64,000 bases of DNA from an uncultured Pseudomonadales bacterium (GCA_963968025.1 CAXAFJ010000001.1:7428-71427); one strand, 5' to 3'; positions 766-50,112 are shown, counted from the first letter of the stretch. Notes: generated by a model not told the origin, from the letters alone. Program-made: numbers and translations.

Positions 766-791
766 ATTTTTTTTATGTCGTTGGTTATGTT

Positions 792-851
792 GTGTTGGTT
801 GTGTTGGATTGTGTCGGGTTGGATTGCGTCGTGTTAGATTGTGCTGTGTTT
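792..851. repeat. Degenerate 15-bp G/T-rich tandem repeat upstream of aroK
   Basis: gattgtgtcgggttg (807-821), gattgcgtcgtgtta (822-836), gattgtgctgtgttt (837-851). Confidence 0.7.
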
Positions 852-858
852 GTAGTTT

Positions 859-893
859 GAGATCCCTCGTCGCTGCGCTCTGTCGGGATGACA
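859..893 (-). repeat. REP-like palindromic element, subtype A
   Basis: Reverse complement is TGTCATCCCGACAGAGCGCAGCGACGAGGGATCTC, identical to 13952-13986. Confidence 0.9.
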
Positions 894-918
894 GGGTTAG
901 GGTGTCGCAAATCCCAAC

Positions 919-1695
919 TCATTTTTTACGCCGCTTGCGAGCCAAATGATCAAACAGCGCAATATACTGCCCAGTCAGCTTATGAGAGGGTGCGTAATAA
1001 ATCAGCGGCACGCACTCATTGTGTGACTCTTTCATCTTCACCGACTGATTAAGATAGGTCGGGATCACCGGCAGCTTCTCTTTCTTCATTTCCGTGATCA
1101 ATCTTGTCGGCAACGACGCCGTGGGCTGGAACTGATTCACCACAATACCGCCAACACTGAGGCCCTCATTATGATCCTCACGAATCTCATAGATCACATC
1201 GAGAATCGAGTAGAGCGCCTGCCTAGAAAAAGCATCGCAGTCAAAGGGAATTAGCACAGAGTCCCCGGCTATTAGGGCCGAGCGAGTATAAAAATTCAGC
1301 GCCGGCGCTGTGTCTATATAGATTTCGTCAAACTCACTGTCGAGCTTATTTAACAGATCGCGCAGCTTGTAGATCTTCTGCCGTGACTCAAGTTTGTGCT
1401 CAAGAGCCAGCAGATTGACGCTGGAGGGCAGTACAAATAGGTTTTCATAGGGCGTTGCATGGACATAGTCGAGTGGTTCATTGAGCTTCGATGAGAACTC
1501 CAGGGTGCCATCAAAATAGTCGGCTACGGTGTTCTTTTCAGGGCTGTCACCGAGCAGGTAATGGGTAGAATTACACTGTGAGTCCAGGTCTACAACCAGA
1601 GTGCGTTTGCCCCTCGAGGCGCTAATGGCTGCCAGATTACAGGTGATACTCGATTTGCCGACTCCGCCTTTCTCATTGAAAATAACTCTGCGCAT
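919..1695 (-). CDS. ParA/Soj family ATPase (no adjacent ParB)
   Basis: Deviant Walker A KGGVGKS, VVDLDSQCN, IDTAP motifs. Confidence 0.9.
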   Translation of the reverse strand: MRRVIFNEKGGVGKSSITCNLAAISASRGKRTLVVDLDSQCNSTHYLLGDSPEKNTVADYFDGTLEFSSKLNEPLDYVHATPYENLFVLPSSVNLLALEHKLESRQKIYKLRDLLNKLDSEFDEIYIDTAPALNFYTRSALIAGDSVLIPFDCDAFSRQALYSILDVIYEIREDHNEGLSVGGIVVNQFQPTASLPTRLITEMKKEKLPVIPTYLNQSVKMKESHNECVPLIYYAPSHKLTGQYIALFDHLARKRRKK

Positions 1696-1786
1696 TTACT
1701 TCACTCCATTGTTTTACAACTTGGTCTGATTCTACCCAATCTCTGCGCTAAAGCGTTAGTGCTGAGCGGGCGAAATGAGTGATTAA

Positions 1787-3514
1787 TTAACTACTGGGGT
1801 AGAGCGGCTTTAGCTCAACGTTGGCTGATGTTTGATTCTTGCTCTTCGGCACGATCGCATTGCGCACTAAACTGACCAGTAACTTCAGGTCCGGTTGTTG
1901 CTCTGTGTTGTTGTACAAGGCCTGATCAAGCAGATCAAACTGCTGCTGTAACTGGACATCGTCGAGAAGTGATGCGATCTCAGCCAGGGTTTTAATCTTC
2001 TGTTGGGGGAAAATACAGCGACCCCAGGCGAGCAGACTATCACGCAGTGGGGCCAGATCAGATTTCCAGGCAGCCCGTTCAATATTGGTGAGCAGCTGTT
2101 TTAACTCGAGACGGGCGCTGTTCAGACCGGACAAATCTGTGCGTGGCGCTGGAGTAGATGATCGGCGCAGCCAGACAATTGACAACAACGCCGCGAGTAG
2201 TAGATTGCTGATCAGGGATATCTGCAATAACCGCGACGAACGAAGCTCTTCAATCAAGGACTTTGGCGCCACTGGAACAGTCTCTTGAGACAGTCTATTT
2301 ACCTGAGCCGCAGTGGCTAGTGCGCTGCTATAGGGATTGATTTTACTCACCTCGGCAGCAGCCACCTGCAGGGTCACTGGATCGAGCTTGGCGGTCTGCA
2401 TGCGCTGTTTGCGGCTGTTCCACCAGCGCACAGTGACTGCTGGTAGAGTGATCTCTCCCGGGCGATTGGGTACTAGGGCAAAGGATTCACGGCGAATACC
2501 GGTTACCCCTGAGGCATCGGCGTTGTCGTCGAGTTGGGGCTGGTCGGGATAGATTTTATAGTCGTCACTTTCGCTAAATGACAGTGGCATAATCTGTGCG
2601 CCGGTTAAGCCCTTGGCGGTGATGCTAATAGTGCGAGTTAGCGGCTCGCCAACTTTGAGCTGGTCCAGTGGGCTGCTCCACTGCTGATTTAAGCTGATAC
2701 TGCTGGCTGGCATCCAGTTGTCCAGATCAATATTGGCAGGTCTTGCCATAACATCGATGGTTTTGGCATCGGTGCTGCGAACAATGCGATTGCCTCTGTT
2801 GCTAAATCCACCGTAGCGACTATTGCTCGTTTCATAGGCAAAAAAGCGCAGCGCCGGAATTTGCAGTTTGCCGCTGGCCTGAGGGAAGAGGGCGTAGATG
2901 ATTTCAACTACCTGATAGTTTTTGCCACCAATATTCTTCTGGAATTGAGTCTCGGAGACCTTCTGCACAACCGCATCATCAACCTGTAGCGGGTCGAGTC
3001 CCAGGTCGCTAAGTCGCACCGAGGTATAGAGTCTGTGTGTGAGCAGCAGCTGCTCCTGAGTATAGAGCTCAGATTTATCCACGAGGGTTTCGGTATACAC
3101 CGGCTGCCCGGCTGCCGAGGCGGCGGTGGCTTTGCGCACGGTGATTTCAATGGCGTTACTGATATCTTTTTTATACTTGATCGAGGGCACTAATAAGCGG
3201 CCAGTGCGCTTGGGGGCGAGCAGTAAATTCCAGTCGGTATAGGACTGGGTCTGGCCATTGACCCGGGAATACTGCTGTTGGCGACTGGTGGAGAGGATCT
3301 CGAAATCGCTCTCGATCACGGTGAAGTCCGGCTCGCCGATTAAGGCCTGGGAGTCTAGGCGCACTAATAGCTGCAATGTTTCATTGCTGTCGATAATGGT
3401 GCGGTCGGCGGTGGCCGTCAGGGTTGCCCAACTGTGGCTACAGGCCAGTGCGAAAGTGGCCGCAAGGGTGATGAAGTAGAGGCGTTTAAGCAGGGTTTTT
3501 GTCATATTAATCAT
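1787..3514 (-). CDS. BatD family protein
   Basis: Signal peptide, YPDQP and LPAVTVRWWN segments, one late TM helix; last gene of the MoxR/VWA operon. Confidence 0.8.
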   Translation of the reverse strand: MINMTKTLLKRLYFITLAATFALACSHSWATLTATADRTIIDSNETLQLLVRLDSQALIGEPDFTVIESDFEILSTSRQQQYSRVNGQTQSYTDWNLLLAPKRTGRLLVPSIKYKKDISNAIEITVRKATAASAAGQPVYTETLVDKSELYTQEQLLLTHRLYTSVRLSDLGLDPLQVDDAVVQKVSETQFQKNIGGKNYQVVEIIYALFPQASGKLQIPALRFFAYETSNSRYGGFSNRGNRIVRSTDAKTIDVMARPANIDLDNWMPASSISLNQQWSSPLDQLKVGEPLTRTISITAKGLTGAQIMPLSFSESDDYKIYPDQPQLDDNADASGVTGIRRESFALVPNRPGEITLPAVTVRWWNSRKQRMQTAKLDPVTLQVAAAEVSKINPYSSALATAAQVNRLSQETVPVAPKSLIEELRSSRLLQISLISNLLLAALLSIVWLRRSSTPAPRTDLSGLNSARLELKQLLTNIERAAWKSDLAPLRDSLLAWGRCIFPQQKIKTLAEIASLLDDVQLQQQFDLLDQALYNNTEQQPDLKLLVSLVRNAIVPKSKNQTSANVELKPLYPSS

Positions 3515-3516
3515 TA

Positions 3517-9044: not shown

Positions 9045-12000
9045 ATGGAAGCCCAAAATAATAGCCAACGTGCTGCGCTAATTGTTTCTCTCAATAAAAT
9101 TGCTGCCCGACAGTTGACCCGGCCCCAGGCTGAGCAGTTTGATAACTTTATTGCCAATGCCATGCACTTCTATCCGGATGCCGACTATTTAGCGCGGCCC
9201 GCTGAAGAAATCTTTTGGAACCTCTGGGGACTGCGGCGCTTTAGTGGCGAGCCGATTTCCATGACCGCTGCTGAGAGTCGCGCCCGGGTGCGGGTGTTTA
9301 ACCCGGAGCCAGAGCTGGACGGTTGGTCCAGTGCGCATACGACTATTTACATTAATCAGCGAGATATGCCGTTTTTGGTTGATTCGCTGCGTATTGTACT
9401 CAATCGTCGTGGCTTAAATATCTTTACCTTGCAGAGTAATCCGGTTTGGGTGCTGCGCAATGCTGCCGGCGCAATTGAGCGTATTTATACTGATTTTGTC
9501 GAAGGGGCTGAGCGCGAGGCGTTGATCGCCGTTGAGGTGGATTTGCATGTGGAGGCAGAGCTGGCGGACTTGCGCCGTGAACTCTTAGATGTGCTCGACG
9601 ATGTCGAAGTGGTGGTAGATGAATTTGACCCCATGCGTCGGCGGGTTGAAATCCTGATCGAAGAGTTGAGCAACAATGCCCCTGAGGTGGAAAAGCTCAA
9701 GGAGTCTCTGGAGTTTTTGCGCTGGATCCACAATGGCTATTTTACCTTTACCGGCTGCGTCGAGTTTGATTTAAAAGTCGATGGCGATAGTTTTTATCTC
9801 AGTGAGACTGCCGACAGTCGCTGTGGGTTATTGAAAAAATATAGCGGCGATCGTCGCAGTGACTGGGTGGAAGAGCTCAGTCCTGGGGTGCGTGCACTCT
9901 ATGAGAGCGACGAACTGCTGGCGATTACCAAGTCGTCTCAGCGCTCGCGAGTGCATCGCGATGTCTACTCAGACTATGTGGTAGTGAAGCGCTTTAACAC
10001 TGAGGGTCAACCCTGCGGTGAAGTGCGCTTTATGGGGCTTTACACCTCGCAGTTTTACTCTTACAGCCCACGGCGGATTCCCTTGCTGCGCAACAAGGTT
10101 AACTGGGTGATGGATAACTCGGGCTTTAAAGCCAATAGTCACGACGGCAAGGCGTTGATGGCAATTCTCGATTTTCATCCTCGGGATGAGCTGTTTTATG
10201 TCAGCCGCGAGAGACTGGCGGAAACTGCGATCAGTATCTGGCAGATCTATGAGCGCCGCGTTATCAAGGCGTTTATCCACCCCGACCCCTTTGATAAATT
10301 TGTCAGCTGTATTGTTTATCTGCCCCGGGAATCTTTCAGCACTCAGTCGCGAATGAAAATTCAGCATTTGATCGGCGATCGCCTGGATGCTGTGGAGAGT
10401 GAATTTACCACACAGTTTTTGCCTGAGTCGGTTTTGGTGAGAATCTATCTGGTCTATCAGGTGCGCAATAAACAGTATCTAAATGTCCAGAGTACTGACC
10501 TCGAAGATATAGTGCGCCAAGTGACCCGCGACTGGTGTGATGAATTTTCTGCCCTGGCCATTGAACAAGCTGGTAATGAACAGGCTGGTAATGAACAGGC
10601 TGGTGACAATCAGGGTGCTACTCTGGCGCGACGTTTTCAACGGGCCTTTCCCGGTGCTTATCGGGAACTCTATACGCCGCTTGAGGCTCTAGGGCATATC
10701 GAACTGTTCGATGCTCTTGAGGGCACCGCTGATCTGGCCATTACCCTGCAACATCAGCAGGCTGCGGAGAACAATCATCTAGCGCTAAAACTGTTTCATC
10801 GTGAGCAGCCCCTAGAACTCTCGGATATGATCCCGATGCTGGAAAATCTTGGCTTTCGGGTGGTCATGGAGCATCCTTATTTGATTCGCCCAGAAGCCGA
10901 CGGGGAGGTCTGGCTGCAAGAATTCCAGCTGTCTTTTTCCCTCGATGTAAATGTCGATGTGGAAGCGGTGCAGGGCAGCTTTAAAGAGGCTCTGAGTACC
11001 GTATGGAAGGGCGATGCTGAGAATGATAGCTTTAACCGTCTGGTAATTGGCGCGCGGCTGGATTGGCGTGCGGTGGCGATGTTGCGGCTCTATGCCCGCT
11101 ATTTAAAACAGCTTGGCATTTCTTACAGCCAGGTATTTATTGCCGATACCCTTTCTCGTTACCTGGATATCACGCGCAATTTGGTGGCCTTGTTTAAAAG
11201 CTATTTTGATCCTCGTTACGCCGGAGAGACTCGCGGCGAGCGTGTTCAGGGGCTGGTAGCAAAGATTCTTGCGGCGCTGGATCAGGTGGACAATATCAGT
11301 GAAGACAATGTGATTCGCAGCTACCTGGAAGTGATTCAGGCAACGCTGCGCACCAACTTTTTCCAAACCATTGAAGATGGCAGTTTTAAATCCTATATCT
11401 CGGTAAAACTGGAGTCGGGGAAAATATCCTTAGCACCCAAGCCGCGGCCTGAGTTTGAGATTTTTGTCTACTCGCCGCGCGTTGAAGGTGTGCATCTGCG
11501 CGGAGGCAAAGTGGCGCGGGGTGGTCTGCGCTGGTCTGATCGTCTGGAGGATTACCGCACTGAAGTCTTGGGCCTGGTGAAAGCTCAGCAGGTTAAGAAT
11601 GCGGTGATTGTACCTACCGGTGCCAAGGGCGGATTTGTCGCTAAACAGGCGTCTATGGCTGCCGGTCGCGATGCCTGGCTGCAAGAGGGTATTGCCAGCT
11701 ATATGTTGTATATACAGGCTCTGCTGGATATTACCGACAATATAATTGATGGCGAAATTGTGCCGCCAGTAGATGTGGTGCGCCGGGACGGTGACGATCC
11801 CTATTTGGTAGTGGCTGCGGACAAGGGTACGGCGACGTTCTCGGATATTGCCAATGAAATCTCTTACGGGAATAGCTTCTGGCTCGGTGATGCCTTTGCT
11901 TCCGGTGGCGGCAATGGTTATGACCACAAGGCCATGGGCATTACCGCCCGGGGTGCCTGGGTGGCGGTGCAGCGGCACTTCCGAGAGATTGGGGTCGATA

Positions 12001-13925
12001 TTCAGCGCGAGGACTTTACTGTGGTGGGTGTCGGCGATATGGGCGGCGATGTGTTTGGCAATGGCATGCTTTTATCTGAGCATATTCAGTTGCTGTCGGC
12101 GTTTAATCACCTGCATATTTTTGTCGATCCGAATCCTGATGCGGCGAGTACTTTTGTCGAGCGCCAACGGCTCTTTGATACGCCGCGCAGCACCTGGGAT
12201 GACTTTGATCGCTCGCTGATGTCTGAGGGCAGTGCGATCTATTCTCGCTCGTCCAAGTCCTTGACTCTAACTCCACAGATTAAACAGCGCTTTGCGATTG
12301 AAAGCGACGAGATAACGCCGACGGAATTGATTAATGCGATCTTAAAGTCGCCAGTGGATTTGATTTGGAATGGCGGTATTGGCACCTATGTCAAAGCCTC
12401 TTCTGAGAACAATGCTGAGGTCGGTGATCGGGCTAATGATGTGCTGCGTGTCGATGGCCGTGAACTGGGCTGTAAGGTCTTTGGTGAGGGCGGCAATCTG
12501 GGTATGACTCAACGCGGCCGTATTGAGTTCTGTCTAAAAGGTGGGCTCTGTAATACTGACTTTATTGATAATGCTGCCGGTGTTGACTGTTCGGATCACG
12601 AGGTCAATATCAAGATTTTGCTCAATCAGTTGGTGCTTACTGGGCAGTTGCAGATTGATCAACGCAATCAGTTTCTTGAGTCTATGACCGACAGTGTGGC
12701 TGAGTTGGTGCTGCACAATAATGTTCGTCAGACCCAGGCAATTAGTTTGGCGCAGCATCGCAGTGATCAGCAGCACGCTGAGTATCAGCGTTTTATGGCG
12801 TGGCTTGAGAGCAGTGGTAAGTTGGATCGAGAATTGGAGTTTTTGCCTACGGGTGATCAGCTCAGTGAGCGGATTAACCGCCACAAACCGAGCTGGACTC
12901 GTCCGGAGCTGGCGGTATTGGTCTGTTATTCGAAGGTGATGCTTAAAGAGGCTCTGGTAGCGGCGGATCTATTATCTGAGCCTTTTTTGGCGGCATCAGT
13001 GGATCGTGCTTTCCCGCCGGCGTTGGTTGAGCGCTATCCCGATGAGGTGGCGAACCATCAGCTACGTCAGGAAATTGTTGCCACTCAGCTGGCGAATGAT
13101 ATGGTCGATCGGGTGGGTTTTAGTTTCTTCTTTCGGCAGATGGAATCCACCGGTGCTTCGGCAGGGGATGTGATTCGGGCTTATACCATTGCCATGAGTA
13201 TTTTAGATTTGCATAAGCTATGGCAGGATATTGAAGGGAGCGATTTACCGGCATCGGTGCAGTTGGATTTGTTGCATATGTTGATTCGTTTGACTCGTCG
13301 TACTACCCGCTGGTTGTTGCGTAATCGGCGCCATAATTTGAATTGTTCAGAGATTATTGAGCAGTTCACTGGGCCTATCGCGTCGGTTTTGGAGCAGCTT
13401 CCGGAGTTGCATGAGATTGAATGGATCAATCTGTGGAGTGCTGAGAAGGACAATATTACTGAGTTGGGCGTGTCTGATGCGCTGGCGTCGCGACTTGCGG
13501 CATCTGACAGTATGTTTATCAGTTTGGGTGTTGTGGATACGGCGTTGCAATTGGATAAGCCTGTGCAGCAGGTGGCTAAGCTCTACTTTAAGCTTGGCGA
13601 GTTTCTCTCTCTGGATTGGTTTATGGCACAGATTGTTGCTTTGCACCCGGAGAATCGCTGGGAGGATTTGGCCCGTGAGTCTTATGTCGATGATCTGGAG
13701 GGGCAGCGTCGTCGCCTTGCTGCCAGTCTTGTTCGTGACAGTCTGGGAGATGATCTGGATATATTAATTGGCGGTTGGCAGGAGCAGCAGGGGGCATTGA
13801 TAGAGCGCTGGAAGTTTATGATTAAAGATCTGCGTCATGGGCCAACGCCTGATTTTGCGATGATCTCTGTGGCACTGCGCGAGTTGCTTGATTTGGTGCA
13901 GGCGTCGATTGATGGGCGGGGGTAG
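9045..13925 (+). CDS. gdhB: NAD-specific glutamate dehydrogenase, large (~180 kDa) type
   Basis: 1626 aa; EGVHLRGGKVARGGLRWSDR, VKNAVIVPTGAKGGF, YLVVAADKGTATFSD, GYDHKAMGITARGAW, DLIWNGGIGTY. Confidence 0.97.
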   Translation: MEAQNNSQRAALIVSLNKIAARQLTRPQAEQFDNFIANAMHFYPDADYLARPAEEIFWNLWGLRRFSGEPISMTAAESRARVRVFNPEPELDGWSSAHTTIYINQRDMPFLVDSLRIVLNRRGLNIFTLQSNPVWVLRNAAGAIERIYTDFVEGAEREALIAVEVDLHVEAELADLRRELLDVLDDVEVVVDEFDPMRRRVEILIEELSNNAPEVEKLKESLEFLRWIHNGYFTFTGCVEFDLKVDGDSFYLSETADSRCGLLKKYSGDRRSDWVEELSPGVRALYESDELLAITKSSQRSRVHRDVYSDYVVVKRFNTEGQPCGEVRFMGLYTSQFYSYSPRRIPLLRNKVNWVMDNSGFKANSHDGKALMAILDFHPRDELFYVSRERLAETAISIWQIYERRVIKAFIHPDPFDKFVSCIVYLPRESFSTQSRMKIQHLIGDRLDAVESEFTTQFLPESVLVRIYLVYQVRNKQYLNVQSTDLEDIVRQVTRDWCDEFSALAIEQAGNEQAGNEQAGDNQGATLARRFQRAFPGAYRELYTPLEALGHIELFDALEGTADLAITLQHQQAAENNHLALKLFHREQPLELSDMIPMLENLGFRVVMEHPYLIRPEADGEVWLQEFQLSFSLDVNVDVEAVQGSFKEALSTVWKGDAENDSFNRLVIGARLDWRAVAMLRLYARYLKQLGISYSQVFIADTLSRYLDITRNLVALFKSYFDPRYAGETRGERVQGLVAKILAALDQVDNISEDNVIRSYLEVIQATLRTNFFQTIEDGSFKSYISVKLESGKISLAPKPRPEFEIFVYSPRVEGVHLRGGKVARGGLRWSDRLEDYRTEVLGLVKAQQVKNAVIVPTGAKGGFVAKQASMAAGRDAWLQEGIASYMLYIQALLDITDNIIDGEIVPPVDVVRRDGDDPYLVVAADKGTATFSDIANEISYGNSFWLGDAFASGGGNGYDHKAMGITARGAWVAVQRHFREIGVDIQREDFTVVGVGDMGGDVFGNGMLLSEHIQLLSAFNHLHIFVDPNPDAASTFVERQRLFDTPRSTWDDFDRSLMSEGSAIYSRSSKSLTLTPQIKQRFAIESDEITPTELINAILKSPVDLIWNGGIGTYVKASSENNAEVGDRANDVLRVDGRELGCKVFGEGGNLGMTQRGRIEFCLKGGLCNTDFIDNAAGVDCSDHEVNIKILLNQLVLTGQLQIDQRNQFLESMTDSVAELVLHNNVRQTQAISLAQHRSDQQHAEYQRFMAWLESSGKLDRELEFLPTGDQLSERINRHKPSWTRPELAVLVCYSKVMLKEALVAADLLSEPFLAASVDRAFPPALVERYPDEVANHQLRQEIVATQLANDMVDRVGFSFFFRQMESTGASAGDVIRAYTIAMSILDLHKLWQDIEGSDLPASVQLDLLHMLIRLTRRTTRWLLRNRRHNLNCSEIIEQFTGPIASVLEQLPELHEIEWINLWSAEKDNITELGVSDALASRLAASDSMFISLGVVDTALQLDKPVQQVAKLYFKLGEFLSLDWFMAQIVALHPENRWEDLARESYVDDLEGQRRRLAASLVRDSLGDDLDILIGGWQEQQGALIERWKFMIKDLRHGPTPDFAMISVALRELLDLVQASIDGRG
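10563..10607 (+). repeat. In-frame 15-bp tandem repeat x3 in gdh (EQAGN-EQAGN-EQAGD)
   Basis: gaacaagctggtaat / gaacaggctggtaat / gaacaggctggtgac. Confidence 0.9.
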
Positions 13926-13926
13926 G

Positions 13927-14385
13927 GTCATCCCGACAGAGCCATCTATTCTGTCATCCCGACAGAGCGCAGCGACGAGGGATCTCCGGCTTGGGCGTGG
14001 GCAAATCCATGCAGACCCTTTGCGATCGGTCCCATGGGTTTGGTATTTCCAGCGTTCGCGCAACTCGCTTGCGCTCAAACAGGGCGCTCTCTTCACCTGA
14101 AAATAACAAACCCATAAGCGGGCCCTGATTGACCGCAAAGGGCCTGCATGGCTTCGCTGATAGATCGAGTACAACCCTGTCATCCTGAGAGAGCAAAGCG
14201 AACCGAAGGATCTCATAGGGGATTGCAGGGTAATGCGTTAGAGGCGGTACACCAAAGAGATCCCTCCACTGCGGTCGGGATGACAGAGTAGTGGCTTGGG
14301 ATGACAGTGGGTTGGTAAGGTAATAAATACCGACATCCCGACAGAGCCACCTATTCTGTCATCCCGACCGCAGTGGAGGGATCTC
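13927..14385. repeat. REP-like cluster downstream of gdh (4 full units, partial units, embedded long hairpin)
   Basis: Full units at 13952-13986 (+), 14178-14214 (+), 14257-14285 (-), 14357-14385 (+); partial units at 13927-13942, 14298-14306, 14332-14347. Confidence 0.9.
14007..14151. other. ~145-bp imperfect long hairpin (MITE-like or structured RNA)
   Basis: 14007-14027 pairs with 14131-14151 (19/21); atgggtttggtatttccag pairs with ctgaaaataacaaacccat (17/19); inner gcgcaa/ttgcgc stem at 14058-14074. Confidence 0.7.
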
Positions 14386-14688
14386 TATCTTGATTACCCC
14401 GCCCAAAAAAAGCGACGGGCTAAACCCAGTTTCCTATCCTTAATCTCAACCTAAACTAGCGCTTTTAGTCCATCAAAATATGCTAGCCACAAAGCCTCTC
14501 AGATCAAACCAACCCTGAATAAACTGCGTATAAAGTGTAAATCACAAGCCCACCTAAGCAGTTAAGTTTTAAGCTAATAGCAAACGGCTCTAAATAACTT
14601 TCAATCAGTGACTATTTTTTGATTGTCGATAGCTAAGTTCAGGGCTAAACTGCCATGCTTTTTCACATTTTTGAGATAATTGATATCC

Positions 14689-17193: not shown

Positions 17194-17250
17194 TCTTTAA
17201 ACTGTCAGCCTGAGAAAACCGCTTAATTTGTTATCCGGACGCCGCCATAT

Positions 17251-17284
17251 TGTCATCCCGGCAGAGCCGCGCGTCGAGAGATCT
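17251..17284 (+). repeat. Degenerate REP-like unit
   Basis: tgtcatcccggcagagccgcgcgtcgagagatct. Confidence 0.75.
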
Positions 17285-17394
17285 AGCCACAGCTAGCACT
17301 GCCTCTAATCGATAGCTGCCAAAATGGCCGAAAATCTATTTATCTGGCCATTTTATGAATATAATGGCCAGACTGTTCATTAAATAGTCAATTT

Positions 17395-20069: not shown

Positions 20070-20114
20070 TCTACAATGTCTGCAACTTGAAATAAGCATG
20101 TCTGGGAGACTGTG

Positions 20115-35528: not shown

Positions 35529-36152
35529 ATGTTCACGTTAAATCTTCCCACTGCGGATCAGGCATTGCCCGGTCGCGACTCCGCGATGCAAATCAGTAAC
35601 CGAAACGTTATCAATGGCCAGCCACTGCAGCCGCCATTTGCCGAGGGTCTCTGCTCAGTGGTGGTGGGTATGGGCTGTTTCTGGGGCGCTGAGCGACGCT
35701 TTTGGCAGCAGGACGGGGTGGTTACTACAGCTGTGGGCTATGCGGGGGGAGCGACTCCCAACCCGACTTATGAAGAGGCCTGTTCCGGTATGACGGGGCA
35801 CTCAGAAGTGGTGTTGGTGGTGTTTGATCCTGCACAAATAAGCTTTGATCAGTTACTGAAAGTGTTTTGGGAATCTCATGATCCCACTCAGGGTATGCGT
35901 CAGGGCAATGATCAGGGCAGCCAATATCGCTCGGTGATCTACTGTGATACTGAGGTCCAGCTTCAGCAGGCATTGGCTTCTGCTGAGACAGTTCAGGGCC
36001 AGTTGACTACTTTAGGTTTCGGTGAGATTACTACTGAGATTTGTATGGCGCCGACGTTCTTTTACGCTGAGGAATATCACCAGCAGTATCTGGCTAAGAA
36101 TCCTGGTGGCTACTGTGGATTGCGTGGTACGGGGATTAGCTGCGCGATTTAG
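35529..36152 (+). CDS. msrA: Peptide methionine sulfoxide reductase A
   Basis: [34 protein letters not shown]. Confidence 0.97.
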
Positions 36153-36167
36153 TTAATGGTGGCTGGA

Positions 36168-36364
36168 GAGCCTCAGCTATTTTGGGGGGAGCCTCAGCTA
36201 TTTTGAGGGAGATCCTTCGGCTTCGCTCAGGATGACAAAATATACGTTGTCATCCCGACCCACATTACGTTTTCATCCCGACCCACATTACCCTGTCATC
36301 CCGACCGCAGTGCAGGGATCTCATCCAGTCGGCACAAGATCCTTCGAGTTAGCTCAGAATGACA
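36168..36364. repeat. REP-like cluster between convergent msrA and enoyl-CoA hydratase
   Basis: 17-bp exact duplication at 36168-36184 and 36189-36205; units at 36209-36237 (-), 36294-36322 (+), 36337-36364 (-); two 23-bp partial units at 36248-36293. Confidence 0.9.
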
Positions 36365-36378: not shown

Positions 36379-37134
36379 CTAACGTTTCAAAATCGCCGAG
36401 ATAGCCGCCTTGGCTTCCGGCGACGCAACGCGCTTGGCAAACTCCTTTGACTCAATGCTGATACGCTCCGCCAAGGGCTCCATATCCCGACGCATCAGCG
36501 CCTTGCTCTGCACCAACGCATCACGCGACTTACCCGCCAGCTTGGCTGCAGTCGCCATGGCACAGGCCATCAGGTTATCGCTGCTACAGATCTGATTAAT
36601 CAGGTTGTATTGCAGTGCTGTCGCGGAATCAAATCGATCTCCCAAGAGCAGCATCTCAGCGGCTTTCACATAGCCACAACGCATGGGCAAGAGCAGCGAC
36701 GAACCAAACTCAGGCACCGCAGCCAGATTAATAAACGGCATCATAAATACGCTGCTGGGCGTTGAATAAACAAATTCACAGTGCAATAGCAGGGTCGTAC
36801 CTATACCTACCGCAAACCCATCGACGGCGGCAATAACCGGTACTGGGCAGGTGGAGAGGGCACGCATAAATTCCCATACTGGGGCTGTTGCGCCGTCCTC
36901 AACGGCCGGTGGCCGGGCGAGAAAATCTTCCAAATCATTGCCGGCAGAAAAGTCCTTGCCACCTGAGAACACCACCACACTGACGTCTTCACGGGTGGCG
37001 CGATGATCAAAAATATCCGCTAACTGGGCATACATATCTGAGGTGAGGGCGTTTTTTTTATCTGGCCGATTGATGCTGACGGAGAGGATGCCATCGGCAT
37101 AGTGACTTTTAATAAGGTCTGGCATATCTGACAT
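36379..37134 (-). CDS. Enoyl-CoA hydratase/isomerase family protein
   Basis: INRPDKKNALT, FSAGNDL, IAAVDGFAVGIGTTLLLHC, PEFGSS. Confidence 0.92.
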   Translation of the reverse strand: MSDMPDLIKSHYADGILSVSINRPDKKNALTSDMYAQLADIFDHRATREDVSVVVFSGGKDFSAGNDLEDFLARPPAVEDGATAPVWEFMRALSTCPVPVIAAVDGFAVGIGTTLLLHCEFVYSTPSSVFMMPFINLAAVPEFGSSLLLPMRCGYVKAAEMLLLGDRFDSATALQYNLINQICSSDNLMACAMATAAKLAGKSRDALVQSKALMRRDMEPLAERISIESKEFAKRVASPEAKAAISAILKR

Positions 37135-39753: not shown

Positions 39754-40688
39754 TAGTTATTCCCCCGAGCTTGCTGTCGCAGTTTTGGGTCGAGCCAGAT
39801 GGCGAGCATATCCGAGAGCAGATTAAACAGAATAATCAATGTGGCGAAAAAGATAGTCATACCGAGAATCATGGTGTAATCCCGGTTAAAGGCGGCCTGG
39901 ACATAGAAGCGTCCGAGTCCGGGAATTTGGAAAATGGTTTCTACCACAAAGGAGCCGCCTAACAGCCCGGCAAAGGCTGGTCCTAAAAAGGCCACCACTG
40001 GGATCAAGCCGCCGCGCATTGCGTGCTTAAAGATAATCAGGGGCTCAGAGAGGCCTTTGGCGCGTGCGGTGCGGATATAGTCTTGAGACAGCACTTCGAG
40101 CATGCCGCCGCGAGATAGCCGCGCTATATAGGCAGCGTATCCGGTGCCCAATGTGATCGAGGGCATGATTTTATCCCCGGGCATATCCCCCCAGCCGGAG
40201 ACCGGTAGCCATTCCAAATAGATGCCAAATATCAGCACCAATAAGGGTCCCAATAAGAAAGAGGGCATGCAGATGCCGAGCATCGCCGCGGACATCGGCA
40301 CATAGTCCTGCAGAGTGTTGGGTCGCATGGCGGCGGCGACGCCGGCGCTAACGCCAATAATTAGCGCCACCATCATGGCGTAGAGGGCCAGCTCGGCAGT
40401 GGCGGGTATGCCTGCCGCGATCAGTTCATTAACGGTGCGGCCGGAGTACTTAAACGAGGGGCCGAAGTCACCCTGCACTACATCGCCGAGGTAGCTGATG
40501 TACTGTTTCCAAAGCGGTTGGTCGAGGTTGTACTGGGCTTCCAAGGCTTTGATGACTTCAGGGGGTACGGCTTTATCCGCAGAAAAAGGTCCGCCAGGCG
40601 CAGAGTGCACCAGCATAAAGGTTGCACTGATAACGATCAGCAGCACAGGAATAGCCTGTAGCAGTCGGTTGAGAGCAAATCGCCACAT
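39753..40688 (-). CDS. oppB: Oligopeptide ABC transporter permease OppB
   Basis: APGGPF, DYIRTARAKGL, GSFVVETIFQIPGLG, NRDY. Confidence 0.92.
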   Translation of the reverse strand: MWRFALNRLLQAIPVLLIVISATFMLVHSAPGGPFSADKAVPPEVIKALEAQYNLDQPLWKQYISYLGDVVQGDFGPSFKYSGRTVNELIAAGIPATAELALYAMMVALIIGVSAGVAAAMRPNTLQDYVPMSAAMLGICMPSFLLGPLLVLIFGIYLEWLPVSGWGDMPGDKIMPSITLGTGYAAYIARLSRGGMLEVLSQDYIRTARAKGLSEPLIIFKHAMRGGLIPVVAFLGPAFAGLLGGSFVVETIFQIPGLGRFYVQAAFNRDYTMILGMTIFFATLIILFNLLSDMLAIWLDPKLRQQARGNN

Positions 40689-42385
40689 TAGTTTTTCTCT
40701 CCCGCATCTGTTATGTCAGCTTCCAGATACATCTCTTTAAATGACGGTTGATTGAGAATATTGTCATTAAAGTTTTTGACCGAGCTATTGACTAGATTGT
40801 TCGAGGTGTAAATGTAGATCGGGATCACTGGCATATCCTCCAATAGCATTGTTTCGGCGCGGTTAAATATTGCCAGACGCTCGGCGTGGGTTTTGGCTTC
40901 CGGTGCGGACCTGAGTATCAGCTGATCATATTCCGGGTTGCACCAGCCGGTGCGGTTGTTGCCGCCATTACAGAGAAACATATCGAGGAAATTGTTGGGG
41001 TCCACATAGTCGCCGATCCATCCAGCGCGGCCGATTTCGTAGTCGAGACTGGTGACGCTGTTTAAATAGACCTTCCACTCTTGATTGAGCAGTTTGACAT
41101 CTATATTGAGGTGCTTTTTCCACATCTGCTGAATGGCCACGGCGATCTTGCGGTGGCCTTCGCTGGTGTTATAGAGAATTTCGGTGGTGGGAAAACCCTC
41201 GCCATTGGGGTAGCCGGCGTCGGCCAATAGCTGTCGAGCGGCCTCGGGATTAAACGCTAGGTCACTTTTGGGGTGGTAGCCCATGGTGCCCGGCGGGGTG
41301 ATGGTATAGGCGGGGATCTGTCCGCCTTTGAGTATCCGCTGGCTTATCTTGTCGCGATTAATTGTCATGCCCAGCGCGCGCCTGACACGTTTGTCTTGTA
41401 GTTGCGGTACGCGAGTATTGATGCGGTAGAAGTAGACGCCCAGATAAGGGGCGATGTGCAGGGCTGGATCGTTGCGCTCCCTGTAGGTGGCGATTTTGTC
41501 GGCCGGCACTGTGCCGCTGTAGTGAAGCTGCCCGGCGCGGAACATACGTTCGACAGTGACGGCATTTTCGATGGGATAGAAGATAATTTTATTCAGTTTG
41601 ATGCTGTCGGCATCCCAGTAGTGGGGGTTGCGTTCGACCACTACCCGACGGTTTATTTTCCACTCGGACAGTTGAAAGGGGCCATTGCCCACTATGTTGC
41701 CTTCGTAGGTCCAGCGGGTGCCACGCTGATCGGCGTCGCCAAATTTTTCGATAGTGGCGCGATGTACTGGGTAGAGGCTGTAGTGGTCGAGCAGTTGCAA
41801 GAAGTAGGGTGTTGGGTTGTTGAGGGTGACTTGCAGAGTAAGGTCGTCGAGGGCTTTGACCCCTACCTGTTCGAAGTCGCTGATGTCCCCTTCGTAATAT
41901 TCTTTGGCGTTTGCGATGGGAAAGTACATGTAGGCGTAGAGGTTGCCCAGTGCCGGTTGCAGGGCGCGCCACCAGGACCAGACGTAGTCATGGGCGTTGT
42001 GCGGGTCACCGTTGGACCAACGGGCGTTATTTCGCAGGTAGAAGGTGTAGACACGGCCGTCTTCGCTGATATCCCAGGAGCTGGCGACACCGGGTCGCGG
42101 TTCGAGGGTTTTGCTGTCTTTGAGCACTAGGCCTTCCATAAGGGCAACGATGATTTTGTGCTCGGGGACGCCGGTGGCGATATGGGGGTCGAGGCTTTGC
42201 GGTTCGGTGCCGTTGCCCCAGTGTAGGGTGCCGCTGCGGTTGCCTGTGCTGACGTTGTTTTCGCCACCACCACAGCTGGTCAGCAGTGTTAGCAATAATA
42301 GGGTTGCCAGCGCTTTGACGGGATTAGATCTAAGGTATGAATGAGTTGCCGGGTTGGGCGCGGTGGTTGCTGGGGAGTGACGCAT
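40688..42385 (-). CDS. oppA: Oligopeptide ABC transporter substrate-binding lipoprotein OppA
   Basis: Lipobox-like LLTSC, EPQSLDP, PGVASSWDIS, LRNNARWSNGD, GNGPF, RAGWIGDY. Confidence 0.92.
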   Translation of the reverse strand: MRHSPATTAPNPATHSYLRSNPVKALATLLLLTLLTSCGGGENNVSTGNRSGTLHWGNGTEPQSLDPHIATGVPEHKIIVALMEGLVLKDSKTLEPRPGVASSWDISEDGRVYTFYLRNNARWSNGDPHNAHDYVWSWWRALQPALGNLYAYMYFPIANAKEYYEGDISDFEQVGVKALDDLTLQVTLNNPTPYFLQLLDHYSLYPVHRATIEKFGDADQRGTRWTYEGNIVGNGPFQLSEWKINRRVVVERNPHYWDADSIKLNKIIFYPIENAVTVERMFRAGQLHYSGTVPADKIATYRERNDPALHIAPYLGVYFYRINTRVPQLQDKRVRRALGMTINRDKISQRILKGGQIPAYTITPPGTMGYHPKSDLAFNPEAARQLLADAGYPNGEGFPTTEILYNTSEGHRKIAVAIQQMWKKHLNIDVKLLNQEWKVYLNSVTSLDYEIGRAGWIGDYVDPNNFLDMFLCNGGNNRTGWCNPEYDQLILRSAPEAKTHAERLAIFNRAETMLLEDMPVIPIYIYTSNNLVNSSVKNFNDNILNQPSFKEMYLEADITDAGEKN

Positions 42386-42588: not shown

Positions 42589-42700
42589 GGTGGCCCTCAC
42601 TGGTCCCCTCGCAACAGCCAGCCGCGAACCCCGCCAGGCCCGGAAGGGAGCAACGGTAGTGGTTACGCTGTGTGCCGAAGTGCGGCTGGTGAGGGTCACC
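42589..42700 (+). ncRNA. ffs: Signal recognition particle RNA (4.5S)
   Basis: Conserved CCAGGCCCGGAAGGGAGCAACGG loop; closing stem ggtggccctcac / gtgagggtcacc; near dnaX; ends approximate. Confidence 0.92.
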
Positions 42701-42843
42701 GCCATATTTCCTGTGTGACTTCTCCTTTTTTGATTTATTTGTGCCTGCTGGTAGTCTGTGGCGTCCGCTATGGATTCGAGCTCTGTTGGTTTGGGAGCCT
42801 GAGGAGCGGCAACGATTGGGGTTCAGCGTGTCACACCAAACTC

Positions 42844-42905
42844 TGTCATCCCGACAGAGCGTAGCGATGAGAGATCTCCCCCTCTATTGGCTGATAATCA
42901 TTGTC
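42844..42905 (+). repeat. REP subtype A plus extension; left copy of a ~62-bp direct repeat
   Basis: tgtcatcccgacagagcgtagcgatgagagatctccccctctattggctgataatcattgtc; a degenerate unit follows at 42906-42940. Confidence 0.9.
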
Positions 42906-44300: not shown

Positions 44301-44428
44301 GGTTCGAGATAACAGCGTTGGGTTCGAGATGACAGTGTTGGGTTCGAGATGACATAAAGCTACATTGTCATCTCGACAGAGCGCAGCGGCGAGAGATCTC
44401 CCCCCTCAATTGGCTGATAATCATTGTC
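44301..44428. repeat. Tandem 20-bp inverted terminal units followed by REP A plus extension; right copy of the direct repeat
   Basis: ggttcgagat(a/g)acag(c/t)gttg x2.7 at 44301-44354; tgtcatctcgacagagcgcagcggcgagagatctcccccctcaattggctgataatcattgtc at 44366-44428. Confidence 0.9.
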
Positions 44429-48858: not shown

Positions 48859-49301
48859 TGGCTATTCAGCCCTGGTGGCACACGAAATCTCTTGCTCAGA
48901 TGAATGATAGTGAGTGGGAATCCCTCTGTGATGGCTGTGCCAAATGCTGCTTGGTAAAGTTGGAAGACGCCGATACTGAAGAGATTTATTACACCAATGT
49001 TAGCTGTCAGCTGCTGGATACCGAGTCCTGCCGCTGTTCCAATTATGCTGGGCGTCACGAGATTGTCGATGACTGTATAAAGCTTGATCGCAGCAATGTG
49101 AATAAATTGGAGTGGCTGCCCCAGAGCTGTTCTTATCGATTGATTGCTGCGGGACAGTCGCTGCCGGATTGGCATCATCTGCGCACCGGTGATCGCAAGG
49201 CCATGCACAGTTACGGCGCATCGTTGCGCGGCAAGGTGACTTCGGAGTTGGATGTGCATGACGATGATATTGAAGACCATATTATTAGATGGATTAATTA
49301 A
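48858..49301 (+). CDS. ycgN: YcgN family CxxCxxCC protein
   Basis: EWESLCDGCAKCCLVKLED, WLPQSCSYR. Confidence 0.92.
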   Translation: MAIQPWWHTKSLAQMNDSEWESLCDGCAKCCLVKLEDADTEEIYYTNVSCQLLDTESCRCSNYAGRHEIVDDCIKLDRSNVNKLEWLPQSCSYRLIAAGQSLPDWHHLRTGDRKAMHSYGASLRGKVTSELDVHDDDIEDHIIRWIN

Positions 49302-49303
49302 CT

Positions 49304-49729
49304 ATGTATACCGCTGAAGATTATCTCCAGGGCTGGATTGCCTACTCGATTGGTGGGCTGTTTTTATTGGTTTTTCTCTGGTATGTGCTGCGCAATCTAC
49401 GTTATGCCGCGGTGCGTCATATTTTGATACTGACCTCTGCAGCCTTTCTGTTCACTCCGGTGACAGCCTATCGCGATGATGCTCATCTGGCTCCGGCGTT
49501 TTTTGTGAGTCTCTATGAAGGGGTTTTGCTGTCCGGTGCCAATGAGGGTTTTCAGCGTGGCTTGGCGCCGATTATTGCGGTGTTGGTATTTGCGCTGCTG
49601 ATCTATGGGGCGGGGCGTTTGTTGTGGGCTAAGCTGTTTCGCAAGACGCTTTCAGTTACTGCTGATGCTTTTGCTGATGGTAGTGATGATGATCAGATTG
49701 CTGAACAGCTATCTAAATCCGATAAATAA
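49304..49729 (+). CDS. Hypothetical membrane protein
   Basis: Three hydrophobic segments, FLFTPV...LAPAF; cotranscribed with ycgN. Confidence 0.7.
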   Translation: MYTAEDYLQGWIAYSIGGLFLLVFLWYVLRNLRYAAVRHILILTSAAFLFTPVTAYRDDAHLAPAFFVSLYEGVLLSGANEGFQRGLAPIIAVLVFALLIYGAGRLLWAKLFRKTLSVTADAFADGSDDDQIAEQLSKSDK

Positions 49730-49738
49730 ATTCCCCTT

Positions 49739-49767
49739 TGTCATCTCGAGCGCCTGTGAGAGATCTC
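49739..49767 (+). repeat. Degenerate REP-like unit between convergent genes
   Basis: tgtcatctcgagcgcctgtgagagatctc. Confidence 0.75.
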
Positions 49768-49794
49768 TACTGGCGACAATCAGTGACCTAAAAT

Positions 49795-50112
49795 TCAGTC
49801 ATTTTTTAGTGTCCAATATGCTGCACTGCAAGCCAGTGCGACAGCGCCGCCTAATGTCAGTAATGACATTGGGCTAATATGAATACTGCTGGGCAACAGC
49901 ACCACGAACTCCGCTATGGGGAAAAAAGCGTAGGACAGCAGGCAGCCAATCAGTGTAAATAACATTGTTATCAGTGCGTCTTTGAAAAACGACAGCCCAG
50001 CTTTTTGCTCAAGTTCTAAGAGTACCTGAGTTGAAAACCCTCGATCCTGTATGCAGGGTTCAGCGCTGCGCAATTGCGCAAATAGGCTGTCGATGTCAGT
50101 TTCTCTGGTCAT
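49795..50112 (-). CDS. Putative membrane anti-sigma factor
   Basis: ATGA overlap with sigma stop; short soluble N-terminus with DRGFSTQVL, then hydrophobic helices. Confidence 0.65.
   Translation of the reverse strand: MTRETDIDSLFAQLRSAEPCIQDRGFSTQVLLELEQKAGLSFFKDALITMLFTLIGCLLSYAFFPIAEFVVLLPSSIHISPMSLLTLGGAVALACSAAYWTLKND

What the first reader, a model, noticed from the sequence alone, without database searches (positions are those of the whole stretch)
781..49800. G+T versus A+C strand skew flips at several REP clusters: possible footprint of recurrent DNA breakage and resection at the repeats
Seen (hand counts of G+T per 60 nt on the + strand). Left of REP loci: 52/60 (781-840), 37/60 (13621-13680), 43/60 (23101-23160), 39/60 (36121-36180), 43/60 (41761-41820). 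Right of REP loci: 20/60 (14401-14460), 21/60 (36481-36540), 26/60 (901-960). The strand running 5'->3' toward the repeat is the G/T-rich one. Replication skew should be constant over 64 kb. Transcription bias could explain genes that point at a REP (gdh, leuB, msrA), but not the intergenic tracts, nor the 5' half of oppA, which is G/T-rich on its antisense strand and fades to 33/60 at 40801-40860. Established: single-stranded DNA accumulates C->T and A->G changes, and 5'->3' resection at a break leaves exactly these strands single-stranded. Inference: the palindromes are repeatedly cut or nicked (hairpin nuclease, HUH or GIY-YIG enzyme elsewhere) and act as local mutagenic or recombination foci. 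Exceptions: the flank right of 23755 is near neutral (28/60 at 23941-24000) and the flank right of 44400 is unclear. The sampled windows were chosen by eye.
Basis: partly seen in the sequence, partly recalled or inferred. Interest (0 to 1): 0.75.

Follow-up and report, generated by a model that had tools for sequence, protein, structure and literature searches.

The report
Strand-composition switch at REP clusters
In this marine gammaproteobacterium, silent codon positions turn strongly G/T-rich in genes transcribed into clusters of short REP repeats and A/C-rich just beyond them; this local pattern is real and I found no published description, but the evidence does not support repeated DNA breakage as its cause.

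Summary
All ten hand counts are exact. The pattern holds genome-wide after controlling for gene direction, replication skew and amino-acid content. With a REP locus downstream, four-fold-site G+T in the last 300 nt of a gene rises by 0.09 (p=1e-9). With a REP locus upstream, the first 300 nt fall by 0.09, but only in tandem pairs; divergent pairs show nothing. Two-fold sites and non-coding flanks agree. A complete relative with about 80% aa identity (G036) shows the same, including paired orthologues. E. coli shows a weaker effect of the same sign. Inverted REP pairs, which fold into long hairpins, give about three times the effect of single units. leuB is the genome's extreme, with 0.88 G+T at four-fold sites and 0.97 at its end.

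The breakage-and-resection reading is only partly supported. The polarity fits, but divergent loci show no effect, synonymous divergence is not raised, G/T loss is slowed as well as gain speeded, and the leu skew starts at the operon start. My best reading is a transcription-conditioned, hairpin-dependent composition switch; the mechanism is unresolved. This scan has noted similar mirror skews beside palindromic repeats in other phyla.

The parts
766..858 (+). G/T-rich spacer (52/60 at 781-840). It is the downstream side of REP 859-901 for minus-strand transcription, so it is A/C-rich in the sense of the transcripts.
   Evidence: class behaviour of tandem downstream spacers
859..901 (-). Single REP unit (GAGATCCC...GGGATGACAG) between two minus-strand genes.
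919..1695 (-). Gene transcribed into REP 859-901. Last-300-nt four-fold G+T is 0.73 on its coding strand.
9045..13925 (+). Large glutamate dehydrogenase gene. Plus-strand four-fold G+T rises from about 0.59 to 0.70-0.75 over its last 1.5 kb.
13927..14397 (.). REP cluster (7 half-sites, both orientations). It includes an inverted pair at 14250-14395 that folds at -56 kcal/mol, and an unrelated hairpin element at 14007-14151.
14398..14679 (+). A/C-rich spacer downstream of the cluster (20/60 G+T at 14401-14460).
15817..17193 (+). Gene ending at REP 17204-17286. Last-300 four-fold G+T is 0.61.
17204..17286 (.). REP locus (2 half-sites) in a tandem gene pair.
17395..18438 (+). Co-oriented gene after the REP. 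First-300 four-fold G+T is 0.32 (mid 0.40, last 0.57), the clearest in-window case of the downstream A/C side.
20112..23286 (+). leuC-leuD-leuB. Third-position G+T jumps to 0.75 at the leuC start and climbs to 0.97 at the leuB end. leuB four-fold G+T is 0.88, the highest of 1812 genes. The state is derived in the G000/G045/G002 lineage.
23398..23760 (.). REP cluster with units in both orientations and 18-nt arrays of the GGGATGACAG end. The skew resets to 0.49 beyond it.
35529..36152 (+). msrA-like gene. Last-300 four-fold G+T is 0.77, against 0.42 in the G006 orthologue, which has no REP and a 26-nt spacer.
36205..36364 (.). REP cluster (5 half-sites) between convergent genes.
36379..37134 (-). 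Convergent partner. Last-300 four-fold G+T is 0.65 on its coding strand (G006 orthologue 0.39).
40688..42385 (-). oppA-like gene. It is C-rich at silent sites along its whole length (0.30/0.28/0.32), so it is not a REP-proximal gradient.
42598..42694 (+). SRP RNA gene (ffs) between oppA and the REP at 42842, transcribed toward that REP.
42842..42905 (+). REP unit with extension.
44301..44428 (.). REP locus between divergent genes.
49304..49729 (+). Short gene ending at REP 49740. Whole-gene four-fold G+T is 0.70.
49740..49767 (+). Single REP unit between convergent genes.

Best explanation
Shown: REP clusters in this genus are flanked by a switch in strand composition that depends on transcription running into them. 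Silent sites of the upstream gene's last 300-500 nt (3 kb for leuCDB) are G/T-enriched on the coding strand. The spacer and first 300-700 nt of a co-oriented downstream gene are A/C-enriched. At convergent pairs both gene ends are G/T-rich, and at divergent pairs nothing happens. The amplitude is about three times larger where the locus holds inverted REP pairs that fold into long hairpins. The state is kept by a directional substitution bias (G/T gained faster, lost more slowly), without excess synonymous divergence. Inferred: the switch belongs to the REP cluster's role as a transcription-end module. REPs in E. coli are partly Rho-dependent terminators and upstream-mRNA stabilisers. Two sub-mechanisms cannot be separated here. 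One is strand-asymmetric damage and repair in DNA held open where RNA polymerase runs into the hairpins. The other is weak selection for G-rich RNA before, and C-rich G-poor (Rho-loading) RNA after, the hairpins, in whichever direction they are entered.
For: Effect sizes by arrangement in G000: REP downstream, tandem +0.116 (p=6e-6) and convergent +0.073 (p=0.005); REP upstream, tandem -0.091 (p=9e-5) and divergent -0.011 (ns). G036 gives the same pattern (+0.067, +0.101, -0.082, -0.016). Paired orthologues with a REP only in G036 (n=19): 0.640 against 0.537, p=0.011. Two-fold sites, an independent site class, agree (p=5e-4 and p=0.0024; divergent ns). Non-coding flanks agree. Inverted pairs give +0.131 against +0.046 for single units (p=0.0035), and -0.118 on the tandem downstream side. 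Single units fold weakly and an inverted pair folds at -56 kcal/mol, z=-13.9. The leu skew starts at the operon start and resets after the cluster. REP-free transcription ends show the same sign at low amplitude: terminator-like site +0.020, convergent +0.035, long spacer +0.020. Divergence is not raised, and leuB has forward rate about 2x and reverse about 0.35x. Only 7 of 45 REP-followed genes also have a hairpin-plus-T-run site. Literature: REP325 is a partly Rho-dependent terminator and stabiliser, and tandem pairs with REPs show upstream-biased expression (bioRxiv 10.64898/2026.03.23.713779).
Against: Simple non-template-strand exposure does not predict the A/C-rich downstream side. Selection on hundreds to thousands of silent sites (97% G/T at the leuB end) would have to be unusually effective. 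G002 keeps the leuB and asd skew with no REP in that spacer. In 7+7+7 discordant orthologue pairs the skew is equal with and without a REP. The rate analysis rests on few, non-independent loci. The divergent class is small (13 genes in G000, fewer in G036). The effect is weak in E. coli, and absent there for tandem pairs.
Confidence: 0.4

Rival explanations
1. REP palindromes are recurrently cut or nicked (hairpin nuclease, RAYT, gyrase). 5'->3' resection leaves the 3'-ended strands single-stranded on both sides, and deamination (C>T, A>G) makes them G/T-rich.
For: The polarity is right on both sides in tandem and convergent loci, in coding and non-coding DNA. The two sides have similar amplitudes in tandem pairs (+0.116 and -0.091). 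The effect is stronger with cruciform-capable inverted pairs. Both transition classes shift. A Y1_Tnp/RAYT gene is present. E. coli gyrase cleaves BIME-2 REPs (PMC6379681).
Against: There is no effect at divergent loci. Synonymous divergence beside REPs is not raised, and G/T-to-A/C changes are slowed. The leu domain follows operon borders. G045 has REPs and skew but no Y1_Tnp hit. G002 has skew at leuB without a REP. Single units are poor hairpins.
Confidence: 0.15
2. Replication or repair polymerases stall at REP hairpins in the template and leave single-stranded gaps on the 5' side of the hairpin. This gives the same polarity whichever way the fork moves.
For: The polarity and the dependence on inverted pairs fit. 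The kilobase scale is compatible with Okazaki-fragment lengths.
Against: It predicts no dependence on gene arrangement, yet divergent loci show nothing. It also predicts extra mutation, which was not seen.
Confidence: 0.1
3. REP clusters are recombination initiation sites. The flanks reflect strand-polar biased gene conversion, or selection for G/T-rich 3' tails that load RecA well (RecA's preference for GT-rich DNA and the GT-rich Chi sequence are from my own knowledge).
For: The rates have a fixation-bias signature: forward up, reverse down, total not raised. There is a gradient away from the REP. The polarity is that of 3'-ended strands.
Against: No Chi-like word stands out in the flanks. 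Divergent loci show no effect. No recombination data are available, and the sign of any repair bias cannot be predicted.
Confidence: 0.1
4. Reverse causality. REPs insert or persist preferentially at transcription ends that are already skewed, for example because these are often single-stranded, which Y1 transposases need. The skew would then have another cause.
For: REP-free long spacers, terminators and convergent ends show the same sign. Discordant orthologue pairs often have equal, raised skew. G002 has skew without a REP at leuB. Several unrelated palindromic elements share these spacers.
Against: Orthologues lacking the REP in G000 sit at the ordinary long-spacer level (0.537), while the REP-bearing G036 copies are at 0.640. 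msrA and its partner are 0.77/0.65 with a REP and 0.42/0.39 without one. G010 gained a REP after pccA and has 0.75, against 0.54-0.56 in G006 and G036. The effect depends on dose and on inverted pairs.
Confidence: 0.12
5. Confound or artefact: codon-usage bias, replication skew, amino-acid content, or my own gene calls.
For: oppA shows that gene-wide codon usage can mimic the pattern. Gene calls are home-made.
Against: Four-fold, two-fold and non-coding sites all agree. Replication skew is a covariate. The effect is localised within genes. It was replicated in G036 and partly in E. coli. Orthologue pairs control for gene identity.
Confidence: 0.03

Closest known systems
Replication-associated GC/keto skew of bacterial chromosomes
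   Same: The base signature is the same (G>C, T>A at constant GC content). The left-to-right sign change resembles a terminus.
   Different: It is local (0.3-3 kb), repeated dozens of times per genome, anchored on REP loci and conditioned on gene arrangement. It is superimposed on a constant replication skew in this window.
Transcription-associated strand asymmetry (excess C>T on the non-transcribed strand; Beletskii & Bhagwat 1996, Francino & Ochman; from my own knowledge)
   Same: The coding strand of genes transcribed into the REP is G/T-rich. The effect needs incoming transcription. A weak version is seen at ordinary transcription ends.
   Different: It is concentrated in the last few hundred nt next to a repeat and far stronger (up to 0.97). 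It is mirrored by an A/C-rich sense strand beyond the repeat, and the reverse substitutions are slowed.
REP / BIME / REPIN elements with RAYT (Y1 HUH) transposases (PMC2817692, PMC3333891, PMC3337134)
   Same: Short extragenic repeats number 140 or more per genome, occur singly, in inverted pairs and in clusters, and a Y1_Tnp gene is in the genome.
   Different: A flanking composition switch does not appear in the titles or abstracts returned by my REP/RAYT searches; I did not read the papers in full. Single units here are weak palindromes. No REPs were found next to the Y1_Tnp gene.
REPs as partly Rho-dependent terminators and upstream-mRNA stabilisers in E. coli (bioRxiv 10.64898/2026.03.23.713779; Espeli et al. 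2001, from my own knowledge)
   Same: There is the same upstream/downstream asymmetry in tandem pairs and symmetric behaviour in convergent pairs. The C-rich, G-poor sense strand after the REP is what Rho-loading regions look like.
   Different: That work concerns expression, not sequence evolution. Termination was not tested here. The E. coli composition effect is weak.
DNA gyrase cleavage at BIME-2 REPs (PMC6379681; Espeli & Boccard 1997)
   Same: It is an established way in which REPs are physically cut.
   Different: In E. coli the cleavage does not fall when transcription is blocked, whereas the skew here needs incoming transcription. No gyrase data exist for this genus.
Strand-coordinated mutation clusters at resected breaks, and fragile inverted repeats in yeast (from my own knowledge)
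   Same: The polarity is that of 3'-ended single strands flanking a break.
   Different: Those are bursts of extra mutation. Here divergence is not raised, and the state behaves like an equilibrium kept by a two-way rate change.

Membership tests
REP/REPIN-RAYT system | Short repeat in high copy number, almost all extragenic | tested here: met
   140 full units, 134 outside gene calls. There are 91 exact-pattern hits, against 0 for the reversed control.
REP/REPIN-RAYT system | Palindromic unit able to form a hairpin | tested here: inconclusive
   Single units fold at -1.5 to -4.2 kcal/mol with z near 0. An inverted pair (14250-14395) folds at -56 kcal/mol, z=-13.9.
REP/REPIN-RAYT system | A RAYT (Y1_Tnp) gene in the same genome | tested here: met
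   PF01797 scores 55 bits at G000:C37:9723-10058, in a 241-aa frame. The gene is present in 4 of the 5 most REP-rich, at least 90% complete genomes of the genus and was not found in REP-poor G002, G004, G006 and G010.
REP/REPIN-RAYT system | RAYT gene flanked by its REPs | tested here: not met
   Only 2-mismatch half-site look-alikes occur within a few kb of the gene on C37.
Replication origin or terminus skew switch | The sign change persists over the whole replichore | tested here: not met
   The plus strand stays G/T-rich across the 64 kb, and the REP effects decay within 0.3-3 kb.
Transcription-associated strand asymmetry | G/T excess on the non-template strand of transcribed DNA, absent without transcription | tested here: inconclusive
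   This is met for genes entering the REP and for the lack of effect at divergent loci. It is not met for the A/C-rich sense strand beyond the REP. No expression data are available.
Break/resection mutational footprint | Mirror polarity on both sides irrespective of gene direction | tested here: not met
   Present in tandem and convergent arrangements and absent in divergent ones.
Break/resection mutational footprint | Locally raised mutation input | tested here: not met
   Four-fold divergence is 0.415 against 0.362, and 0.240 against 0.273. Gene-matched end/mid ratios are 0.93 and 0.74, against 0.99 and 0.90 in controls. The leuB A/C<->G/T class is 0.17-0.19, against 0.30-0.37 in neighbours. 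The samples are small and not independent.
Break/resection mutational footprint | Physical breaks or nicks at the repeats | not testable with these tools
   This needs END-seq, GLOE-seq or Topo-seq.
Rho-dependent terminator | C-rich, G-poor RNA downstream of the coding region | tested here: met
   In tandem pairs the downstream spacer has sense-strand G+T of 0.394, against 0.468 without a REP. Four-fold sites in the first 300 nt after a REP (all arrangements) have C 0.406 against 0.372 and G 0.204 against 0.227.
Rho-dependent terminator | Rho-dependent transcript ends | not testable with these tools

The most novel reading that the evidence does not exclude
Long REPIN-type hairpins are sites of strand-specific DNA processing (nick, break or gap) that is triggered when transcription runs into them. 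The mirror-image silent-site skew seen here, in a second lineage of the genus, faintly in E. coli, and (per this scan's earlier notes) in several other phyla would then be a general, undescribed footprint of that processing. The flanks may be co-adapted, for example as G/T-rich 3' tails that favour RecA loading.
Probability: 0.2. Interest if true: 0.85.

Novelty: new variant of a known kind. Interest (0 to 1): 0.7.

Why it matters
Local base composition at silent sites is usually ascribed to replication strand, expression level or codon adaptation. Here a short mobile repeat predicts it better than any of these over hundreds of bases, and pushes a housekeeping gene (leuB) to 88-97% G/T at silent positions. 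If REP hairpins reshape their neighbours, three things follow. REP gain and loss becomes a driver of synonymous evolution and of codon-usage outliers that are often misread as horizontal transfer. The skew becomes a sequence-only read-out of where transcription meets hairpins. The long-debated function of REPs (terminator, stabiliser, gyrase site or fragile site) becomes testable from comparative data. The dependence on gene arrangement and on inverted pairs, and the lack of excess divergence, are new constraints that any mechanism must meet.

Tried and rejected
1. Parsimony polarisation of leuB changes against G006, G010 and G004. Four-fold sites are saturated (0.56-0.71 different), so the apparent C>G excess is unreliable.
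2. G045 and G049 as replicates. They reproduce the effect but are about 94% identical to G000 and share most REP loci, so they are not independent. They were used only for divergence estimates.
3. REP unit orientation as the determinant of polarity. Units run with or against transcription 19 to 15 times, so this was rejected.
4. Chi-like or other motif enrichment in the inward strands. Only REP fragments stand out. E. coli Chi is 104:70 leading to lagging, and GGGCAGGG (KOPS-like) is 63:15.
5. Replication skew alone. It is real (slope about 0.8) but constant across the window, and it is a covariate in all models.
6. Ordinary terminators as the full explanation. The effect is only +0.02, with none on the downstream gene.
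7. The search for related loci returned no same-genus records, so the organism is known only to order level; the nearest named hit is a Porticoccaceae MAG at 74%.
9. Rfam found only SRP RNA in the window.
10. Four literature searches found no description of REP-flank skew.

Full report
OBSERVATION. In this window 60-nt windows average 31.9 G+T with SD 4.7, so the windows picked by eye are 2 to 4 SD outliers. The window is G000:C1:7428-71427 of a 2.45-Mb, 166-contig assembly. The organism is a Pseudomonadales-order marine gammaproteobacterium; the nearest named relative of its leuB is a Porticoccaceae MAG at 74%. The repeats have the form GTCATCC[CT]GA[CG]-N3-18-GA[AG][AG]GATC. There are 140 full units in the genome and 134 lie outside my gene calls. 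Window loci are at 859-901, 13927-14397, 17204-17286, 23398-23760, 36205-36364, 42842-42905, 44301-44428 and 49740-49767.

IS IT MORE THAN CHANCE AND GENE DIRECTION? I called 2108 genes with a codon-model ORF picker and used four-fold degenerate sites to remove amino-acid effects.
- The coding strand is only slightly G/T-rich on average (0.512; four-fold sites 0.478). The plus strand of this window carries a constant replication skew.
- A meta-plot against distance from 110 REP loci shows G+T on the strand running into the REP rising to 0.62 within 250 nt, both for genes pointing at the REP (baseline about 0.47) and for genes pointing away (baseline about 0.52).
- Compared with REP-free gene ends, the excess is +0.11, +0.05 and +0.02 in successive bins at 3' ends. 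At 5' ends it is -0.04, -0.03, -0.03 and -0.02.
- In gene-level regressions with local replication skew as covariate, the last 300 nt gain +0.092 with a REP downstream (p=1.4e-9). The first 300 nt lose 0.045 with a REP upstream (p=0.004).
- Two-fold sites, a separate class where only transitions are silent, agree. T/(C+T) is 0.669 against 0.597 and G/(A+G) is 0.661 against 0.585 at REP-followed ends (p=5e-4). The values are 0.499 against 0.570 and 0.421 against 0.497 at tandem REP-preceded starts (p=0.0024).
- Non-coding flanks, with the repeats masked, agree as well.

WHAT THE PATTERN DEPENDS ON.
- Gene arrangement. In tandem pairs the upstream gene end gains +0.116 (p=6e-6) and the downstream gene start loses 0.091 (p=9e-5). 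In convergent pairs each end gains +0.073 (p=0.005). In divergent pairs nothing happens (-0.011, p=0.64). The same holds for non-coding flanks and two-fold sites.
- Hairpin potential. Single units are weak palindromes (-1.5 to -4.2 kcal/mol, z near 0), but an inverted pair folds at -56 kcal/mol, z=-13.9. Loci with inverted pairs show +0.131 (n=39) against +0.046 for single units (p=0.0035), and -0.118 on the tandem downstream side. The number of units also correlates with the effect (rho=0.36, p=0.017).
- Not unit orientation. Units run with or against transcription 19 to 15 times.
- Base signature. C falls from 0.35 to 0.23 and A from 0.15 to 0.11. G rises from 0.26 to 0.37 and T from 0.23 to 0.29. 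GC content at these sites is unchanged. This is the same signature as leading-strand skew.

THE LEU OPERON. leuB (22180-23286) has four-fold G+T of 0.88, the most extreme of 1812 genes. Third-position G+T on the plus strand jumps to 0.75 at the leuC start, climbs to 0.97 at the leuB end, and resets to 0.49 beyond the REP cluster. The domain therefore follows the transcription unit rather than simply fading with distance.

The state is derived. Four-fold G+T of leuB is 0.88 in G000 and 0.83 in G002, and 0.90 over its last 300 nt in G045. It is 0.56, 0.40 and 0.55 in G006, G010 and G004, which are 92-94% identical in protein. G002 has no REP in the leuB-asd spacer, only two other palindromic elements. 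There the skew runs on through asd (0.83).

RELATIVES. REP abundance varies widely in the genus. Exact-pattern counts are G000 91, G049 76, G036 62, G045 46, G002 4, G006 3, G004 1 and G010 0.
- Where G000 has a REP cluster between msrA and its convergent partner, the two gene ends are 0.77 and 0.65. In G006, with a 26-nt spacer and no REP, they are 0.42 and 0.39.
- Three further genes compared across five genomes mostly follow REP presence. This includes an independent REP after pccA in G010 (0.75 against 0.54-0.56 in G006 and G036). There are exceptions: G004 pccA is 0.73 without a REP, and G002 ubiH is 0.55 with decayed REPs.
- G036 is a complete 2.2-Mb genome with a median 80% protein identity to G000, and most of its REP loci are not shared. 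It reproduces the whole pattern: REP downstream +0.067 (tandem) and +0.101 (convergent); REP upstream -0.082 (tandem, p=5e-4) and -0.016 (divergent).
- For 19 orthologue pairs with a REP only in G036, the values are 0.640 against 0.537 (p=0.011). The 7 reverse pairs show no difference.
- In the first 800 kb of E. coli K-12 the effect is weaker. It is +0.047 at convergent REPs (p=0.002) and nothing significant at tandem ones. No REPs lie between divergent genes there.

MUTATION OR FIXATION BIAS?
- Four-fold divergence between G000 and its close relatives is not raised beside REPs (0.415 against 0.362, and 0.240 against 0.273).
- In gene-matched comparisons the end/mid ratio is 0.93 and 0.74, against 0.99 and 0.90 in controls. 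For changes between the A/C and G/T classes it is 0.81 and 0.68, against 0.99 and 0.92.
- In leuB that class differs at 0.19 (G045) and 0.17 (G002) of sites, against 0.30-0.37 in neighbouring genes.
- A two-state fit gives gain of G/T at about 2x and loss at about 0.35x the neighbours' rate. Added mutation with an unchanged reverse rate predicts about 0.25, while a fixation-type bias predicts about 0.19.
These samples are small and the comparisons share loci. All three analyses nevertheless point away from REP flanks being mutation hot spots.

INTERPRETATION. A Y1_Tnp gene is present, and gyrase cleavage of REPs is known in E. coli (PMC6379681). Four results fit it poorly:
- the lack of effect at divergent loci;
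- the absence of excess divergence;
- the operon-shaped leu domain;
- G002's REP-free skew.

A replication-stall model gives the same polarity but fails the same tests. What the data require is a process that needs transcription running into a long hairpin. It must act on both sides of the hairpin with mirror polarity, and it must behave like a directional bias in fixation or a two-way change of rates.

I therefore favour, at 0.4, a link to the REP cluster's role as a transcription-end module. In E. coli a REP is a partly Rho-dependent terminator and upstream-mRNA stabiliser, and tandem pairs with REPs show upstream-biased expression (bioRxiv 10.64898/2026.03.23.713779). The C-rich, G-poor sense strand beyond the hairpins is what Rho-loading regions look like. 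At convergent pairs, the G/T-rich end of each gene makes read-through RNA from the other gene C-rich. Ordinary transcription ends show the same sign weakly.

I cannot decide whether the bias comes from strand-asymmetric damage and repair or from weak selection on RNA composition. Reverse causality (REPs settling at already skewed, often single-stranded ends) probably contributes, but it does not explain the paired-orthologue differences.

SPECIFIC CORRECTIONS. oppA is C-rich at silent sites along its whole length and also in G006. The SRP RNA gene at 42598-42694 separates it from the REP. It should be dropped as evidence. The locus at 44301-44428 lies between divergent genes and shows no flip, which fits the general rule rather than being an unexplained exception.

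CONTEXT WITHIN THIS SCAN. Earlier notes describe similar mirror skews beside palindromic repeats in Lachnospiraceae, alphaproteobacteria, a marine bacterium, a Clostridium and others. They are unchecked AI notes and are not used as evidence. One check quoted there also found no excess divergence in flanks, as I do. One note reports polarity following REP orientation, which I do not see here.

LIMITS. Gene calls are my own. Divergent loci are few. Close relatives are not independent. No transcript, read-level or break data could be obtained.

Noticed in passing
window 14007-14151; L105 (G002), L103 (G006) and L106 (G010) leuB-asd spacers: The 145-nt hairpin element inside the gdh REP cluster is a second mobile element. 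Near-identical copies sit in the leuB-asd spacer of G002, G006 and G010, but not in G000 or G004. G010 carries it without any leuB skew.
   Followed up: partly
L105 (G002) and L106 (G010), leuB-asd spacer: A third palindromic element (TATTGCTGAC...GTCAGCAATAT, about 75 nt) occupies the same spacer in G002 and G010. Spacers after leuB are a shared landing site for at least three repeat families.
   Followed up: no
whole genome (G000): Even REP-free genes show a 5'-to-3' rise in four-fold G+T (about 0.456 in the first 150 nt to 0.49-0.53 in the last 150 nt). Convergent ends are +0.035 above others.
   Followed up: partly
G000:C37:9723-10058 (-): There is a Y1_Tnp (RAYT-like) gene in a 241-aa open frame. 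My codon model did not call it, and it has no REP units beside it. G045 has 46 REPs but no Y1_Tnp hit, while some REP-free genomes of the genus have one.
   Followed up: partly
window 42598-42694 (+): The SRP RNA gene (Rfam RF00169, 68 bits) lies 148 nt upstream of the REP at 42842 and is transcribed toward it.
   Followed up: no
whole genome (G000), oriented blocks: GGGCAGGG, which matches the E. coli KOPS pattern GGGNAGGG, is the most strand-skewed octamer (63 leading against 15 lagging).
   Followed up: no
contig ends of G000: 77 of 140 REP units lie within 600 nt of a contig end. Genes whose 3' end faces a contig end have raised four-fold G+T (0.550, p=1e-6). The assembly evidently breaks at REP clusters.
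   Followed up: partly
window 27259-27426: Six 21-nt tandem repeats (GCCACAAATCTAGAGCCCTCA-like) and 18-nt repeats at 26983-27044 lie inside the 837-aa gene 25114-27627. That gene is only 43-56% identical between relatives, while its neighbours are above 90%.
   Followed up: no
L105 (G002), asd orthologue: In G002 asd has four-fold G+T of 0.83, against 0.60 in G000 and 0.39-0.56 in G006, G010 and G004. Where no REP separates leuB from asd, the skewed domain runs on through asd.
   Followed up: partly
E. coli K-12 NC_000913.3, 1-800000: None of 39 REP loci lies between divergent genes, and 42 of the 55 genes that face a REP downstream are in convergent pairs.
   Followed up: no
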